This document shows, in pieces, positions 40,417 to 45,143 of a stretch of DNA of 64,000 nt. A model generated the notes under the pieces. That model saw nothing but the letters and a program-made list of their open reading frames with translations. It did no database searches and was not told the origin of the DNA. Each line of letters starts with the position of its first letter. The first letter of the stretch is position 1. A program made the position numbers and the translations under genes. The stretch lies in IMG/VR virus record IMGVR_UViG_3300033075_001021. The stretch is one strand, 5' to 3'. This DNA comes from a virus. Lineage: Duplodnaviria > Caudoviricetes.

Positions 40417-40632
40417 TTATTTTATTTTTTCACCGCACCTTAAAGGTGTTCCGTCTGAATTAAAAACTTGCATTGTCATCCCTCTTTTGAATTTGTAAAC
40501 AAACCCGTTTTCACATTCGATTTTATAATCAAAATGCATCCCGACTTCATACGGGTCTTTTTTACTTTCAAAGTATAACCCTATTGAAAAGGCTATAATT
40601 ACAAAAAGCACCAGCAATAAAAATTCTTTCAT
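40417..40632 (-). CDS. Small membrane-anchored protein
   Basis: N-terminal TM; TTGACT-N17-TATATT upstream (40685..40657). Confidence 0.6.
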   Translation of the reverse strand: MKEFLLLVLFVIIAFSIGLYFESKKDPYEVGMHFDYKIECENGFVYKFKRGMTMQVFNSDGTPLRCGEKIK

Positions 40633-40844
40633 ATCTCTGTGTTTTTAGTTTATATTAATATACTAAGAGATGCGGGAAAAGTCAATAGAATTATGTGATT
40701 TTTTAAGCTCTTTTAACCCTCCGTTTTCCTTTATAATTCGATGTAAAAAGATTACTCTTTTTCTCCAATATGTTTTTTCTAGTATGTTTGATTTTTCTAA
40801 CTTATATTTTGCCTTATGGTATTCTAATATGTACCGATTCATTA

Positions 40845-41066
40845 TTATATTTTTTTTATCTTTTCAATTGTACCGTCTTTCCAATGTTTTACAAGCCACC
40901 CATCTTTATCCATGTAAACCTTAGGTAACCCCTGTCCCCATGTATCGGCTTCTATTTGTTTTCTAAATCCCTCTTTAAATTCTGGAGAATTAAATAACTC
41001 CGACACCAAATCATTATCCTCAATCTCATCCAAAGATTTACAATCTTTTAATTTTTTCTTTTTCAT
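40845..41066 (-). CDS. Hypothetical protein
   Basis: 73 aa in operon. Confidence 0.55.
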   Translation of the reverse strand: MKKKKLKDCKSLDEIEDNDLVSELFNSPEFKEGFRKQIEADTWGQGLPKVYMDKDGWLVKHWKDGTIEKIKKI

Positions 41067-41070
41067 GTTT

Positions 41071-41445
41071 TTAATTTGAAAGTGGCGCTTTGATTGCTGG
41101 TTGTGATTGATAACATATCGTAATAATTAACCCTCTACTAACATTAAGTTCTCTTGCAACGGATGCCGACGTTAATTTTAATTTACTTACTAACATTTTA
41201 TCAACTATTAAATCAGAATTTTTTTCTCTATATCTATATAACATCCATTGTAATTCAAAAAATATAGAACCCCAATTAATGGTACCATCGTTGTTAATAG
41301 GTGTTCTTAATTTTAATGTTTTTCCAATAAACTCTTCGGAAATTCTTATGTCAGGGATTGCTTGTGAAAAATAAACAAAGTCATCATTAATTTTCTTACA
41401 ATAATCCCTATCCTCGGTTTCAGTAAATTGATTAATATCTATCAT
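41071..41445 (-). CDS. Hypothetical protein ending in a copy of the ThyA C-terminus
   Basis: YQSQPAIKAPLSN* vs ThyA YQSHPPIKAPLSN*; 21 identical nt. Confidence 0.7.
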   Translation of the reverse strand: MIDINQFTETEDRDYCKKINDDFVYFSQAIPDIRISEEFIGKTLKLRTPINNDGTINWGSIFFELQWMLYRYREKNSDLIVDKMLVSKLKLTSASVARELNVSRGLIITICYQSQPAIKAPLSN

Positions 41446-41449
41446 TTAT

Positions 41450-42184
41450 TTAATTTGAAAGTGGCGCTTTAATTGGTGGGTGGGATTGATAGTTTTCTAA
41501 TTGAAAATCAAACACGTTATAACAAGATATATCAGTTGGTAAAATATCTTTACATGGATTATGCAATATGTTTAATGTGGGTAACTCAAGAGATACTCTA
41601 GTAATCTGCTCCTTAGCCTGCTCAATATGATTTGAATACAAATGCACATCACCTAAACTACCAATTAGTTCATCTGGAATCATATTCACTTCCTTAGCAA
41701 TAATCTCTAACAACAAACCATAACTTGCTATATTGAAAGGTAAACCAAGAAATGTATCTACTGAGCGTTGGTTCCACATTAGAGAGATTGCTCTGGTTGG
41801 AATGTTATCATCATTTAATGATTTTTTCAATGAGTCCATTTCATCACTGTATCCTCCAAATGTAGAATAAAATTGTTCCCAATCATTTCTAAAGTTCCCT
41901 CTCTTACAACGTATTTCATATCTTTCCCATAATTTCAATTCTCTTGTATAAACTTGAAATCCATAATGACAGGGTGGGAGAACCATTTGGTCTATTTCAC
42001 CTACATTCCAAGCATTAACCATTAACCTACGGCTATCTGGATTTGTTTTGAGTTCGGAGATTAAGTTTGCTATTTGGTCAATACCTTTATTACCGAACTC
42101 ATTATTAAATTCTTTGTCTGTTTTCAATTTTTGTAAAAACTCTTCTTTTGTAAATGGGGTTCCGTCTTCGTGTTTATATTTCAT
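41450..42184 (-). CDS. thyA: Thymidylate synthase, C-terminal half
   Basis: IDQI, PDSRR, LPPCH, QRSVDTFLGLPFN, DVHLYSNH. Confidence 0.93.
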   Translation of the reverse strand: MKYKHEDGTPFTKEEFLQKLKTDKEFNNEFGNKGIDQIANLISELKTNPDSRRLMVNAWNVGEIDQMVLPPCHYGFQVYTRELKLWERYEIRCKRGNFRNDWEQFYSTFGGYSDEMDSLKKSLNDDNIPTRAISLMWNQRSVDTFLGLPFNIASYGLLLEIIAKEVNMIPDELIGSLGDVHLYSNHIEQAKEQITRVSLELPTLNILHNPCKDILPTDISCYNVFDFQLENYQSHPPIKAPLSN

Positions 42185-42456
42185 AACTTTATTTTTCTTT
42201 CTAATGTTGCTGGTTTTCCAGAAATGATTAAGTTCTTTTTTATACCCTCAAAAATTGTAATATCATCATAAGGACTTATAATATATATTATTTCAGTTTT
42301 ATCTTTATTTAATCCCACAGTTAAAGTCTGGTAAGGATGATATGAGTCATAAAATATATCAACTCCGTCAACTACACCTAATTTAACAATACCTTCCCAT
42401 TTCTTGTCGGGTTTAATAAATTCTGGCCCATTACAATCATACTTACTGTCTATCAT
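42181..42456 (-). CDS. Small protein with similarity to a gp23 C-terminal segment
   Basis: GI..LG...G....D.Y.P.....VG....YI..PY pattern. Confidence 0.55.
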   Translation of the reverse strand: MIDSKYDCNGPEFIKPDKKWEGIVKLGVVDGVDIFYDSYHPYQTLTVGLNKDKTEIIYIISPYDDITIFEGIKKNLIISGKPATLERKIKL

Positions 42457-42460
42457 ATAC

Positions 42461-43153
42461 TCAATTTATATAAAACCAATTTTTATATTTTTCTTTATGT
42501 TTCTCTGACCGACCCCTACCTTGTAATATCCATCTAACAGAAAATTCATTCATATTAATAAAGTCCGCAGCCGCTTTAGCGGATTCAAATTCAACACCAT
42601 CTATTGAACATCTCTTGTTTGATGTTGAAGGTAGTTTTTTTCCTTCATATTTTTTTAACTTATCGGTGTTTGCTTTATTTGATATATTTGAACCATTAAA
42701 TCTACCTTTTAACCATCCCCCCTCAACAATTTTCGGGTCATTGGGGAATGCTCGTAGATTTGTTCCGTCAGGTTTATGATACCATTTAGAACCCTTTATC
42801 TTTTCTCTACTAGCGTTTATCTGTGATTCCGATGGTTTGAACTTTTGCCATATTTCTAACATTTTATGTTTAGCATATTCATATACCCTTGAAGATGGTT
42901 TATATCTTTGTTGATTATCTGAATTACGGCACATTGACCAAAAGGCGTACCTTAAATCACTATTTTCTGGATACATTTCATGTAATAACCAATGAATTAA
43001 AAAATGTTCTCTCGCAGTTAAATCCACTAAATTATTTGGTTTATTAGTTCCATTCATACATTTTGGTATAATGTGATGTTTTTCAACATATCCTTCTAAC
43101 TTTCTGTTTTTTGCTCTCTCAATAAGGTCGTCGTGTATTTTTTTGTAGTCCAT
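42461..43153 (-). mobile_element. MobE-like HNH homing endonuclease
   Basis: YKKIHDDLIERAKNR..GYVEKHHIIPKCMNG..NLVDLTAREHFLIHWLL. Confidence 0.9.
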
Positions 43154-43201
43154 AATTACCATTGTTTACTATACATAAATATGGTAATAAATGGAAAAAT
43201 A

Positions 43202-43744
43202 CTACTTATCTTTAACTTTTTTCAAATAATCTTCATAAAGCTCATCATCAGATTTACCATTCCAATTACGCCAACCAGCCCCATACACGGGGCCTAGTTC
43301 ACCCCACTTCTTTGCAAACTCATCATCGGTTTTAATTTTATCAATAAATTCTTCCATTGTAAATTGACCATCTAGTTCAAAGGCAGATAAACCGTTTATT
43401 TCAGTTGGTTGAACTGATTTGATTTTAAAATCATGTGGGTTAGACGAAAACTGTGATTTGTTTAAATAATTCTTATAAGCATCTCCATTCCAAATATGAC
43501 ATTCATCTTCAATTAGTGATTTTATATTGGTGTCACCACGAAGAAACCAAAGCAATTCAGCTACGATACCCTTGAAGTACATTTTTTTGGTTGTAAGCAA
43601 AGGAAACCCATCTTGCATGTTATGACGAATTTGCCAACCAAAAATTGATTTGGTTCCAGTTCCAGTACGGTCTTTCTTACCGTCACCAAAACGAATAATA
43701 AAATCAAGTAATTCTCGATATTGTCTGTCTAAGTTATTTGCCAT
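43202..43744 (-). CDS. thyA: Thymidylate synthase, N-terminal half
   Basis: DRTGTGT, FPLLTTKK, ELLWFLRGDTN, LGPVYG..WRNW. Confidence 0.93.
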   Translation of the reverse strand: MANNLDRQYRELLDFIIRFGDGKKDRTGTGTKSIFGWQIRHNMQDGFPLLTTKKMYFKGIVAELLWFLRGDTNIKSLIEDECHIWNGDAYKNYLNKSQFSSNPHDFKIKSVQPTEINGLSAFELDGQFTMEEFIDKIKTDDEFAKKWGELGPVYGAGWRNWNGKSDDELYEDYLKKVKDK

Positions 43745-43881
43745 TTGAGTTAGTGTTTAAAATGTTGTTATATTCTTCAATTGTCAAGAATTGAGTATCT
43801 CCATTACTTACTTGAACAATTACGCCAGTTGGCTGTTCATCGCTTTCATCTTGAATCCAATTGATAAGCGTTATTTCAAAA

Positions 43882-44121
43882 TTATTCGTATTCATAGTCA
43901 ATGTTATTTTTGTATATCCACAAATGATTGTAAAGATTAAAAATTGTTAATTCAATTTGAAATGCTGGAGTATGTTCACCTAAAAACCTATCAAAATTAA
44001 TCTTAAATTCAAAAAAGGTAAATCCGTCAGAAAGCTTTCGTATTGGGGCAAATAGTTGTATTTCCCAAAGTAATTTCTTTTTTTTCCATAAGGTACCAAA
44101 CAATACAAGTCCGATATTCAT
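43882..44121 (-). CDS. Hypothetical protein
   Basis: 79 aa; start overlaps the stop of the orphan stub (ATGA). Confidence 0.55.
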   Translation of the reverse strand: MNIGLVLFGTLWKKKKLLWEIQLFAPIRKLSDGFTFFEFKINFDRFLGEHTPAFQIELTIFNLYNHLWIYKNNIDYEYE

Positions 44122-44198
44122 ATCTTAACAATTTTACAAGGTTTATTATACTTTTCACAAAGAGAAATGCTATGTTGTGTTCCACGTGAAATACCATT
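44118..44198 (-). pseudogene. Orphaned 3' end of the SLOG/YspA-like gene
   Basis: NGISRGTQHSISLCEKYNKPCKIVKI* vs DQKSKGTLHSINLAKELKKPIRIITF*. Confidence 0.82.
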
Positions 44199-44767
44199 TA
44201 TTTTATAATATTTTTATCTTTTAAATTAAGATATACTGAGCTAATCCAATGTATAAATTCATCGTGATGGTATTTGTTTTTGATGAAATTACATTTTGAA
44301 CAACATGGAACGACATTATCTAAATAATACCCTTTTTCGTTATCTAATCTGTCAATACCATTAAACTTATAAGGTCCATTTAATTTTTGTTTTTTAAACT
44401 CAAAAATAGGTTCAGTTCCGCAATAATAACAATCGGATTCAAAGATTTTAATCATCTCCTCATCGGTTAGATTAAAACTGATTCCTTTAAATTTTGCATT
44501 ATGCCTATAATTGTAAATCAATGCGTTTCGATTAGCTATTCCAAATGCTTTTCTCCTTTTTGCCCCGTAATCAATTTCTTTTTTTATACAACCACAACTT
44601 TTAGTATGGTTATTAACTACTTTAGATGCTTCTACTATTACTATATTTCCACAATCACATTGACACTTATATTTTTTTCTTTTATAAGAAGCTTTTGGCA
44701 TTACTTCAATAATCAATAATTTATTAAATTTTTTTCCGATTAATTCATCTTTCTTATTTTGTTCCAT
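44198..44767 (-). mobile_element. Free-standing HNH homing endonuclease
   Basis: CQCDCG..TKSCGC N-terminal module; CYYCG..GIDRLDN..GY..NVVPCC..CN..K. Confidence 0.88.
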
Positions 44768-44801
44768 TAGTATTACTTTAATAATAAATATAGCAATGGA
44801 A

Positions 44802-45143
44802 CTAAAAGGTTATAATTCGTATCGGTTTTTTTAATTCTTTAGCTAAATTAATTGAATGTAATGTCCCTTTTGATTTTTGGTCCCAAAATGCAATTACATA
44901 ATCAGCATTTTTGATGATATCTTCATTACGTATAAAGCCAGCTGATTTACCATATTTGTCCCATTCAGGTAGAAAGATAAGAGTATCTATGCCGTGTCTT
45001 TCAGCCCACTGTTCACCCATCTTATCAGCACCTTTGGCACCACCTGACACAACCAATTCGATTTGAAAAATCAATGGGTTCAATGTTTCATTTAATAAAT
45101 CAATGTCATTGAACCCACGACTCCCAATAATGGCTAATTTCAT
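44802..45143 (-). CDS. SLOG-family (YspA/DUF2493-like) protein
   Basis: IIGSRGF, VSGGAKGAD, GKSAGFIRN, AFWD.KSKGT. Confidence 0.85.
   Translation of the reverse strand: MKLAIIGSRGFNDIDLLNETLNPLIFQIELVVSGGAKGADKMGEQWAERHGIDTLIFLPEWDKYGKSAGFIRNEDIIKNADYVIAFWDQKSKGTLHSINLAKELKKPIRIITF

What the first reader, a model, noticed from the sequence alone, without database searches (positions are those of the whole stretch)
41450..43744. Split thymidylate synthase whose new termini rebuild a duplicated helical module
Seen: thyA is broken between WRNW and IDQI by a MobE-like HNH gene and a 91-aa ORF. Spacers are too short for a group I intron core and there are no intein motifs. The C half has its own ATG overlapping the upstream stop. 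The N half gains a tail DELYEDYLKK (compare internal DAYKNYLNK), and the C half gains a head DGTPFTKEEFLQKLKTDKEFNNEFG (compare internal DGQFTMEEFIDKIKTDDEFAKKWG). Established: mobE splits nrdA in phage Aeh1 and the halves assemble after translation. Inference: a two-chain ThyA in which a split copy of its own insertion domain acts as an assembly clasp.
Basis: partly seen in the sequence, partly recalled or inferred. Interest (0 to 1): 0.82.

Follow-up and report, generated by a model that had tools for sequence, protein, structure and literature searches.

The report
Endonuclease-split thymidylate synthase with clasp ends
A large environmental phage encodes thymidylate synthase as two genes separated by a selfish endonuclease gene, and the two broken ends together form a second copy of a small helical piece of the enzyme that probably clips the halves together.

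Summary
On the minus strand, thyA is two ORFs (180 and 244 aa), broken between WRNW and IDQI. A MobE-like HNH endonuclease gene and a 91-aa ORF fill the gap. I found no intron (Rfam: nothing) and no intein.

The 19-aa tail plus the 34-aa head align end to end with ThyA's own helical insert (hhalign 97%, E 1.5e-11).

- **Frequency:** this is a large family. The same head starts hundreds of metagenomic ThyA C-halves.
- **Other sites:** the same tail/head pair flanks breaks at two other ThyA sites, with at least five kinds of nuclease gene in the gap.
- **After endonuclease loss:** the pair survives, both in split genes and in "healed" single-chain genes. One healed gene still carries the endonuclease's 3' end.
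- **Selection:** head codons show pN/pS 0.11 at pS 0.58.
- **Fold:** AlphaFold2 folds the healed form, and the isolated 51-aa module, as three helices.

Most likely this is a two-chain ThyA whose ends act as a non-covalent clasp brought in with the mobile cassette. Binding and activity are untested; the one complex job gave no verdict. The principle is known from Aeh1 NrdA (Crona 2011). Here the tails' origin and portability are visible. This scan reached the same reading on two other genomes.

The parts
43202..43744 (-). thyA N half (180 aa plus TAG stop). Carries the R21, E58 and W80/W83 equivalents (DRTGTGT, AELLWFLRG, GWRNW).
   Evidence: invariant columns R26, E63, W158, W161 in 12 split relatives
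43292..43492 (-). Native helical insert of ThyA ('module 1', residues W85-G151): helix A (GDAYKNYL), a variable loop, and helices B/C (FTMEEFIDKIKTDDEFAKKWG).
   Evidence: equivalent helices H84-94, H107-116 and H118-124 in the AF2 model of the fused relative
43205..43261 (-). C-terminal tail of the N half (residues 162-180, NGKSDDELYEDYLKKVKDK), counterpart of helix A (helix A').
   Evidence: pN/pS 0.20. The last seven codons are also nearly invariant as DNA.
43163..43201 (-). 39-nt spacer between the N-half stop and the endonuclease gene. It is conserved in all MobE-type cassettes of this family and is a candidate regulatory region.
   Evidence: (left junctions nearly identical in nine loci)
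42461..43162 (-). MobE-like HNH homing endonuclease gene (233 aa as listed; the real start is probably the ATG at 43153, giving MDYKK...).
   Evidence: 98% identical protein in L084 although that locus's thyA halves are only 60-67% identical
42181..42456 (-). 91-aa cargo ORF of unknown function. It travels with the endonuclease gene, and its stop overlaps the C-half start (ATGA).
   Evidence: 93% identical copy in L084; read as one ORF with the C half in P0008
42083..42184 (-). N-terminal head of the C half (residues 1-34, MKYKHEDGTPFTKEEFLQKLKTDKEFNNEFGNKG), counterpart of helices B/C (B'/C').
   Evidence: (pN/pS 0.11, pS 0.58)
41450..42184 (-). thyA C half (244 aa plus stop). Carries DSRR, the catalytic Cys (LPPCH), NQRSVD, FNIASY and GDVHLY.
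   Evidence: invariant C72, R52, R140, S141, D143, N151, H181, Y183
41071..41445 (-). Adjacent 124-aa ORF whose last 13 residues (41074-41112) duplicate the thyA C-terminus (41453-41491). This is a second, separate insertion footprint at the 3' end of thyA.
   Evidence: a parallel case in L008, where a second HNH gene ends in the same duplicated thyA tail

Best explanation
thyA of this phage is a 'genes-in-pieces' gene. The phage is an uncultured phage; the same C half lies on contigs up to about 289 kb.

A free-standing MobE-like HNH homing-endonuclease cassette (endonuclease gene plus a 91-aa cargo ORF) sits in the surface linker between the WRNW helix and the IDQI helix. Two polypeptides are translated separately. 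The C half is coupled to ORF91 by an ATGA overlap. The two polypeptides co-fold without any RNA or protein splicing into a ThyA whose active site is shared between the chains: R21/E58/W80/W83 equivalents on the N half; RR, the catalytic Cys, QRSxD, N and H/Y on the C half.

The 19-aa tail and the 34-aa head are the two parts of one small three-helix module that is homologous to ThyA's own helical insert. The module is inferred to re-form across the two chains and tether the new termini, making the insertion harmless. This is the role shown experimentally for the unrelated tails of mobE-split NrdA in phage Aeh1.

The module halves belong to the mobile cassette rather than to this gene. They most likely descend from ThyAs that were broken inside the native module, and they have been carried to at least two further positions in ThyA.

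**Shown:** the anatomy, the homology, the mobility, selection on the head, persistence after endonuclease loss, and the predicted fold of the joined form.

**Inferred:** translation of both halves, their assembly, tail-head contact, and enzyme activity.
For: **1. Anatomy and exclusion of splicing**.

**2. Unsplit relatives.** Flavobacterium phage immuto, LR756502 and 61 IMG/VR loci have only a hypervariable 2-57 aa linker at this site. They lack the tail and head.

**3. Same break in many loci.** At least 14 IMG/VR loci carry the same break and the same ends. The head finds 539 protein clusters at E<=1e-3. All 120 listed carry PF00303, and 168 of the 185 proteins retrieved by the two searches start with the head. 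110 of 141 type B C halves keep all four catalytic motifs; the rest include fragments from contig ends.

**4. Homology to the native module.** hhalign prob 97.4%, E 1.5e-11, collinear over 44 columns. BLASTP gives 13/24 identical, E 8e-7. Alignment A6 has W, G, F, D, G, G invariant over 38 sequences.

**5. Portability.**
- The same pair flanks a break between SAWNxxDLP and VLPPCH, with a GIY-YIG/NUMOD3 endonuclease gene in the gap (L183, L186, L187, L190, L099). This form gives 187 clusters, and 118 of the 120 listed are head followed by PPCH.
- L099 has no native module.
- ThyAs broken inside the native module (L014, L019, L049) have homologous ends and the same AAAGTTATG right junction.
- L089 is broken at two sites.
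- At least five kinds of nuclease gene occupy the gap.

**6. Mobility.**
- The window and L084 share a 1.76-kb block at 91% nt identity. The HEG protein is 98% and ORF91 93% identical, while the first 130 aa of ThyA are about 60% identical.
- L005 (HEG-plus) and L143 (HEG-minus) have 92-93% identical flanks that end exactly at the head/NKG-IDQI junction.

**7. Selection.** Head pN/pS is 0.11 with pS 0.58. The tail is 0.20, and the neighbouring core segments are 0.26-0.34.

**8. Persistence without the endonuclease.**
- L189: stop, about 26 nt, then ATG.
- L188: endonuclease gene deleted, split kept.
- Single-chain forms P0021 (at least seven contigs, at least four samples), P0123 and P0124 join the tail to the head with 0-15 aa between them.
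- P0124 still contains the last ~40 nt of the HNH gene read in the thyA frame, so it derives from a split ancestor.

**9. Predicted fold.**
- AF2 of P0021: mean pLDDT 89.8. The tail+head region forms H143-156, H167-176 and H178-184 (pLDDT 75-90), mirroring module 1 (H84-94, H107-116, H118-124).
- The isolated 51-aa joined module: pLDDT 80.3, pTM 0.60, three helices in all five models.

**10. Precedent.** The Aeh1 NrdA tails are essential (PMC3045599).
Against: - There is no direct evidence that either polypeptide is made, that they bind, or that the enzyme is active.
- The AF2 models are of joined single-chain forms, not of two chains, and give no contact list.
- The isolated module has no significant match among solved structures.
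- In Aeh1 the tails were not needed for the a/b heterodimer, only for the next assembly step. 'Clasp between the halves' may therefore be the wrong step here too.
- The native module's helix B is itself highly conserved in all these ThyAs. Selection on the head could reflect a general role of that fold rather than tethering.
- The last seven tail codons are invariant as DNA, which points to a nucleotide-level constraint there.
- Some relatives are clearly decaying: L171 has only the N half, and L125 and L174 are remnants. thyA is therefore dispensable in some settings.
Confidence: 0.6

Rival explanations
1. The two-chain ThyA is functional, but the tail and head are passengers. They are remnants of a module copy that came with the cassette (or existed before it). 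The halves assemble through the extensive ThyA core interface, and the ends contribute nothing specific to holding the halves together. They may matter for another step, such as dimer formation or stability, as in Aeh1.
For: - The ThyA halves are interwoven: the N half supplies a long strand of the central sheet (E27-40 in the AF2 model).
- The Aeh1 tails are not needed for the heterodimer.
- The single-chain healed forms keep the module with no need for a clasp.
- Part of the tail is conserved at DNA level.
Against: - Head pN/pS is 0.11, lower than the adjacent catalytic core.
- The head is near-invariant over 157 distinct clusters whose remaining sequence is only about 50-70% identical.
- The same pair recurs at a different break site and in a ThyA without a native module.
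- The pair is kept after endonuclease loss.
Confidence: 0.25
2. The split thyA is a disrupted, non-functional gene on its way to loss. The phage relies on the host ThyA or on another enzyme encoded elsewhere in its genome.
For: - Remnant and half-only loci exist (L171, L174, L125).
- T4 td is dispensable in the laboratory (general knowledge).
- Only 64 kb of the genome could be inspected, and no whole genome is held.
Against: - Both halves are intact, with every catalytic motif present.
- Hundreds of diverged split homologues keep the motifs: 110 of 141 type B and 99 of 118 type C.
- The halves are 55-78% identical across loci without stops.
- pN/pS is well below 1.
Confidence: 0.07
3. One continuous ThyA is made after all, by RNA splicing (a group I intron carrying the endonuclease ORF), protein trans-splicing, or ribosomal bypass.
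For: - T4 td carries a group I intron with I-TevI, at a different site (FLG|LPF).
- Bypass elements are linked to mobile endonuclease cassettes (bioRxiv 10.1101/2022.08.31.505936, listed).
Against: - No Rfam match at E<=1 on either strand of 40500-45000.
- Only 39 nt of the gap is non-coding.
- The N half has its own stop after an extension that is conserved as protein, and the C half has its own ATG.
- The relative L189 has a 26-nt gap, and L188 keeps the split without the endonuclease.
- Tail plus head total 53 aa, too small for a HINT fold, and no intein family is hit.
- The gap is about 1 kb, far beyond known bypass lengths.
Confidence: 0.03

Closest known systems
Aeromonas phage Aeh1 nrdA-a / mobE / nrdA-b (Friedrich et al. 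2007; Crona et al. 2011, PMC3045599)
   Same: - A MobE-type HNH homing endonuclease gene splits a nucleotide-metabolism gene into two separately translated ORFs.
- The active-site residues are divided between the chains.
- There is no intron or intein.
- Each half has a short extra tail absent from unsplit homologues, and the downstream half overlaps the preceding ORF.
   Different: - The enzyme is different (ThyA).
- The Aeh1 tails have no known origin and are oppositely charged. Here the tails are two parts of a recognisable helical module homologous to the host enzyme's own insert.
- Here the pair is found in hundreds of clusters, at three break sites, with several nuclease families, and in healed single-chain descendants.
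- Function is proven for Aeh1 and not tested here.
T4 td gene with its group I intron and I-TevI
   Same: A phage thymidylate synthase gene invaded by a homing endonuclease gene whose cost to the host gene is neutralised.
   Different: T4 uses RNA self-splicing, and its insertion site is FLG|LPF. Here there is no ribozyme, the site is WRNW|IDQI, and neutralisation would be at the level of protein assembly.
T4 gene 39 / mobA / gene 60 and the phage 25 gene 43A/43B splits (reviewed in PMC2988022)
   Same: Endonuclease-associated splits of essential phage enzymes into two polypeptides that reassemble. Tail-like extensions on gp39/gp60 were noted by Crona et al.
   Different: Those tails have not been traced to any domain. 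Gene 60 additionally needs ribosomal bypass, and no such element is present here.
Split inteins in 'fractured genes' (Dassa et al. 2009, PMC2677866)
   Same: An endonuclease gene sits between two gene halves whose products carry complementary docking pieces.
   Different: Inteins dock and then splice covalently through a HINT fold of 130 aa or more. Here the ends total 53 aa, are helical, have no intein motifs, and would stay non-covalent.
Lactobacillus casei / Enterococcus faecalis type ThyA with the small-domain insert (PDB 4TMS, 1BP0, 3UWL)
   Same: These are the best structural matches of the AF2 model of the healed relative (Foldseek E 4e-32 to 1e-30, TM 0.69-0.72 by query). They carry the native insert to which the tail+head module is homologous.
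   Different: They are single chains with one insert. The phage family has a second copy placed after WRNW (or before PPCH) and divided between two chains.

Membership tests
Endonuclease-split 'genes-in-pieces' enzyme with assembly tails (Aeh1 NrdA type) | The gene is continuous in relatives but is two ORFs here | tested here: met
Endonuclease-split 'genes-in-pieces' enzyme with assembly tails (Aeh1 NrdA type) | A free-standing homing endonuclease gene lies in the gap | tested here: met
   phrog_655 E 2e-45; 48% identity to T4 MobE, E 4e-30
Endonuclease-split 'genes-in-pieces' enzyme with assembly tails (Aeh1 NrdA type) | C- and N-terminal tails at the break that unsplit homologues lack | tested here: met
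Endonuclease-split 'genes-in-pieces' enzyme with assembly tails (Aeh1 NrdA type) | No RNA or protein splicing | tested here: met
   Met by sequence only: Rfam scan empty, no intein family, different frames and ORF-filled gap. Transcripts and proteins were not examined.
Endonuclease-split 'genes-in-pieces' enzyme with assembly tails (Aeh1 NrdA type) | The halves assemble into an active enzyme and the tails are required | not testable with these tools
   Needs expression, complementation and deletion of the tails.
Thymidylate synthase ThyA (PF00303) | Family profile match and catalytic residues (R21, E58, W80/W83, R126/R127, C146, R166, D169, N177, H207/Y209 equivalents) | tested here: met
   E 2.6e-34 and 1.2e-52; all motifs present across the two halves and invariant in split relatives
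MobE-type HNH homing endonuclease | HNH catalytic motif and similarity to T4 MobE | tested here: met
   BLASTP E 4e-30 to T4 MobE over the HHIIP...N...LT..EH region. Pfam HNH is only 14.6 bits, below the 21.4 cut-off.
MobE-type HNH homing endonuclease | Site-specific cleavage and homing | tested here: inconclusive
   Mobility is implied: a 98% identical gene sits in a thyA that is only 60-67% identical, and there is a HEG-plus/HEG-minus allele pair, L005/L143. Nuclease activity was not tested.
Group I intron with endonuclease ORF (T4 td type) | Ribozyme core flanking the ORF | tested here: not met
   No Rfam hit at E<=1; only 39 nt non-coding
Intein / split intein | HINT fold blocks at the extein junctions and an in-frame fusion or paired IntN/IntC | tested here: not met
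   No intein family; ends of 19 and 34 aa predicted helical

The most novel reading that the evidence does not exclude
The tail/nuclease/head unit is a self-neutralising mobile cassette of a third kind, beside introns and inteins. It carries the two parts of a small autonomous three-helix module at its edges. Wherever it lands in frame in a surface loop, it breaks the gene but supplies the non-covalent clip that holds the products together. Different nuclease genes can then use the gap as a shared, safe parking slot. When the nuclease is lost, the gene can heal, with the module left behind as a new internal insert. This would be a route by which mobile elements create protein insertions.
Probability: 0.4. 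Interest if true: 0.85.

Novelty: new variant of a known kind. Interest (0 to 1): 0.72.

Why it matters
Crona et al. (2011) showed one case (Aeh1 NrdA) in which tails that arrived with an endonuclease rescue a broken enzyme. They predicted that others exist but would be hard to find, because such tails have no recognisable sequence.

This ThyA family supplies what that single case could not:
- The tails have a traceable origin, as the two parts of the enzyme's own helical insert.
- The same tails appear at three break sites with several nuclease families.
- Natural 'controls' exist: unsplit alleles, split alleles without a nuclease, and healed single-chain alleles.
- Hundreds of sequences are available for analysis.

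This makes the question of how selfish endonuclease genes can sit inside essential genes without splicing directly testable with a simple thyA complementation assay. The family also suggests a source of portable split-protein tags, and a way in which insertions in enzymes can arise.

Tried and rejected
- **Complex prediction.** Complex prediction with the tail (N half 151-180) against the head (C half 1-34), both with alignments, scored 0.25 against a mark of 0.32. That is no verdict, and I use it neither for nor against binding. I ran no further search on the whole halves, because a pass there would mostly reflect likeness to solved ThyA structures.
- **Fold search of the isolated module.** Foldseek of the 51-aa model against the PDB gave nothing significant. 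The best-fitting weak row was E. faecalis ThyA, E 6, rmsd 3.6 over 41 columns.
- **Within-protein BLASTP.** Module 2 against module 1 within P0021 gave no alignment. The profile comparison and the window's own pair did.
- **Close DNA relative.** Megablast of the region against 50,697 phage records found nothing.
- **ORF91.** It has no Pfam, PHROG or phage tblastn match.
- **Whole genome.** None is held, so I could not look for a second thyA or a thyX outside the window. The window itself has no second thyA.
- **Literature.** Searches of the held library found no description of a split ThyA of this kind.
- **Local tandem duplication.** I rejected this as the origin of the ends, because the same pair occurs at another site and in a ThyA lacking the native module.
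- **Fused forms as ancestral.** For P0124 I rejected the idea that it is ancestral, because it retains the endonuclease gene's 3' end. For P0021 and P0123 the direction is less certain.
Full report
**What is in the window.** Four ORFs lie head to tail on the minus strand.
- A ThyA N half at 43744..43202 (180 aa).
- An HNH gene at 43162..42461.
- A 91-aa ORF at 42456..42181.
- A ThyA C half at 42184..41450 (244 aa).

Pfam places the two outer ORFs on positions 2-108 and 159-265 of PF00303, at E 2.6e-34 and 1.2e-52. The N half ends GWRNW, then NGKSDDELYEDYLKKVKDK, then TAG. The C half starts MKYKHEDGTPFTKEEFLQKLKTDKEFNNEFGNKG and continues IDQI. Its ATG overlaps the stop of the 91-aa ORF as ATGA.

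The middle gene matches phrog_655 'homing endonuclease' at E 2e-45. It is 48% identical to T4 MobE over 97 residues, E 4e-30.

**Not an intron, intein or bypass.**
- A permissive Rfam scan of 40500-45000 on both strands found nothing at E<=1.
- Only 39 nt of the gap is non-coding, and the frames differ.
- No intein family is hit.
- The ends total 53 residues, too few for a HINT fold.
- In T4 the td intron lies elsewhere, at FLG|LPF.
- A relative (L189) has the same break with only about 26 nt between stop and ATG. Another (L188) keeps the break after deletion of its endonuclease gene.

**Unsplit relatives define what is extra.** The nearest named phages are the Flavobacterium phage immuto isolates and one uncultured megaphage. 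They have continuous ThyAs of 368-423 aa. In 61 continuous IMG/VR relatives, the stretch between WRxW and IDQI is a hypervariable linker of 2-57 residues with no resemblance to the tail or head. The break thus lies in a tolerant surface loop, and the 19+34 residues are additions.

**The additions are a second copy of the native helical insert.**
- BLASTP of the head against the window's own N half aligns residues 11-34 with 128-151: 13/24 identical, E 8e-7.
- Three natural single-chain ThyAs (see below) join tail and head. A profile of that joined segment aligns collinearly with a profile of the native insert over 44 columns: hhalign probability 97.4%, E 1.5e-11.
- A 38-sequence alignment shows W, G, F, D, G, G invariant from end to end.
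- The tail corresponds to helix A (GDAYKNYL). The head corresponds to helices B and C (EEFInKIKTDdEFAkKWG).

**A large family, three break sites.** The scans of IMG/VR fall into three groups.
- **Type B** is the window's arrangement: the break follows WRNW. It occurs in at least 14 loci. The endonuclease is either the same MobE-like one (73-98% identical) or a second HNH/NUMOD3 gene only 36% identical.
- **Type C** breaks ThyA between SAWNxxDLP and VLPPCH. It has a GIY-YIG/NUMOD3/I-TevI-type gene in the gap. It carries the same tail (TDDELYNDYLKDI) and head (LTKEEFLEKLKTDKEF..YG). One type C gene, L099, is an E. coli-like ThyA with no native insert.
- **Type A** breaks ThyA inside the native insert, so its natural ends are helix A and helices B/C. 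It shares the AAAGTTATG right junction with type B.

L089 is broken at both the A and B sites. In the 5.8-billion-protein collection:
- The window's head finds 539 clusters. All 120 listed carry PF00303, and 168 of the 185 proteins retrieved start with the head.
- The type C head finds 187 clusters, and 118 of the 120 listed are head followed by PPCH.
- The catalytic motifs are kept in 110 of 141 type B and 99 of 118 type C sequences. The remainder include truncated contig-end fragments.

**The cassette is mobile.**
- The window and L084 come from related phages, with flanks 81-85% identical. They share a 1.76-kb block (43354-41603) at 91% identity.
- That block holds helix B, the tail, the endonuclease gene (98% as protein), ORF91 (93%), the head and most of the C half. 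The first 130 residues of ThyA are only about 60% identical.
- L005 (with endonuclease) and L143 (without; continuous ThyA) have 92-93% identical flanks. The flanks stop at helix A on the left and exactly at the head/NKG-IDQI junction on the right.

**Selection on the ends.** I compared twelve type B loci for the tail and ten for the head.
- The head has pS 0.58 but pN 0.064, giving a ratio of 0.11.
- The tail ratio is 0.20.
- The adjacent catalytic-core segments are 0.26 and 0.34.

The head is therefore conserved as protein, not merely copied recently. The last seven tail codons are also nearly invariant as DNA, which suggests an added nucleotide-level constraint at the cassette edge. The 30 nt after the stop are likewise conserved.

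**Healed genes.** Three clusters are single chains in which the tail runs straight into the head.
- P0021: ...YLKKV-MKYTHEDG..., found on at least seven contigs from at least four samples.
- P0123.
- P0124: a 15-aa link.

The link in P0124 is encoded by about 40 nt that are identical, bar one base, to the 3' end of the HNH gene of L007, read in the thyA frame. That gene therefore descends from a split ancestor by deletion between short AAAGT repeats. The tail's C-terminus and the head's N-terminus can be joined by 0-15 residues, which is what is expected if they lie side by side in the assembled two-chain enzyme.

**Predicted structure.**
- AlphaFold2 on P0021 with a 73-row alignment gives mean pLDDT 89.8 and pTM 0.87. 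The tail+head region forms helices 143-156, 167-176 and 178-184 at pLDDT 75-90. This mirrors the native insert's helices 84-94, 107-116 and 118-124.
- The best structural matches of the whole model are L. casei and E. faecalis ThyA.
- The joined 51-residue module alone gives pLDDT 80.3 and pTM 0.60, with the same three helices in all five models.
- These are predictions for joined chains. No contact list is available, and the small model has no significant match in the PDB.

**Most likely mechanism.** Two polypeptides are made and co-fold into a ThyA with a composite active site. The tail helix and the two head helices probably re-form the small module across the chains and tether the new ends, so the insertion costs little.
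- I put about 0.6 on this reading.
- I put about 0.25 on a functional two-chain enzyme whose ends are passengers or act at another step. In Aeh1 the tails were needed for dimerisation of heterodimers, not for the heterodimer itself.
- Small weights go to decay (0.07) and to covalent rejoining (0.03).

**Comparison with what is known.** The principle was shown for Aeh1 NrdA: tails that arrive with a mobE insertion are essential for activity (PMC3045599; review PMC2988022). The authors predicted further cases. No paper in the held library describes a split ThyA of this kind. What is new here:
- the enzyme;
- the identifiable origin of the tails;
- their portability between three sites and several nuclease families;
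- the natural series of unsplit, split, nuclease-free split and healed alleles.

I class it as a new variant of a known kind.

**Earlier notes of this scan.** After reaching these conclusions I found that two follow-up reports on other genomes (e1-5339370, e1-5697657) describe the same ThyA family and reach the same reading. My tests were run independently on this window and agree with them.

Noticed in passing
window 41071-41445 (-), with 41453-41491: The 124-aa ORF directly after thyA ends in a 13-residue duplicate of the ThyA C-terminus (11 of 13 identical). Against L084, the ORF body is an insertion between a new and an old thyA 3' end. L008 has a second HNH endonuclease gene at the same place, ending in the same duplicated tail. 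This looks like a separate '3'-end replacement' insertion whose nuclease part has been lost or is unrecognisable.
   Followed up: partly
window 44198-44767 (-) and 44802-45143 (-): Another HNH/endonuclease VII-like gene (phrog_1035, E 1e-18) lies 450 nt upstream of thyA, next to a YAcAr/SLOG-like gene (PF10686 in the table). The region between 45153 and 43354 has no counterpart in the related phage L084.
   Followed up: no
L001 and L003 (Flavobacterium phage immuto 2-6A and 3-5A), ThyA residues about 153-175: Two nearly identical isolates differ completely in the WRxW-IDQ linker only (AFIDDSSGYREDWEWDS versus KQFIPYNVTKENCQVAVKVT). This is a local patch replacement at exactly the type B break site.
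   Followed up: no
L089:1439-4738: ThyA in three pieces. There is a break inside the native module (GIY-YIG-like gene in the gap) and a type B break (MobE-like gene plus two small ORFs). The 86-aa middle piece carries helix B, GELG..WRNW and the tail.
   Followed up: partly
L099:2129-2869 and L089:3449-3616: The in-frame WVNW-INQI linker of the L099 ThyA contains a stretch (GVWCVKWSDLHSFGEGTHWCYTD) that resembles a small free-standing ORF of the L089 cassette (KGIWMVKWSDLHSFSQGTHWMYTE). Cassette cargo may have been absorbed into a ThyA loop.
   Followed up: no
L171, L174, L125: These are decayed versions. L171 has an N half with tail but no C half within 2.6 kb. L174 has a middle piece, an endonuclease gene with an internal stop and a truncated type C piece. 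L125 has a tail remnant and a 23-aa head remnant flanking two unrelated ORFs just upstream of an intact continuous thyA.
   Followed up: partly
P0008 (Logan contig, 350 aa): A homologue of the window's 91-aa ORF is read in frame with the C half as one ORF (...EKKNKV-MKYKHEDG...). In at least one relative the cargo ORF and the C half may therefore be a single protein.
   Followed up: no
window 43163-43201 and the same spacer in L084, L085, L005, L008, L089, L093, L098, L172: A conserved spacer (TAGTATTTTTCCATTTATTACCATATTTAT) lies between the N-half stop and the MobE-like gene. A shortened remnant of it survives in the nuclease-free split L189. It is a candidate promoter or translational control element for the endonuclease.
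   Followed up: no
window 41800-41950 (-), C half residues about 82-131: A second, variable insert of about 50 aa lies between FQVYTRE and ISLMWNQRSVD. It is present, with different sequences, in all relatives of this ThyA clade, including the immuto phages.
   Followed up: no
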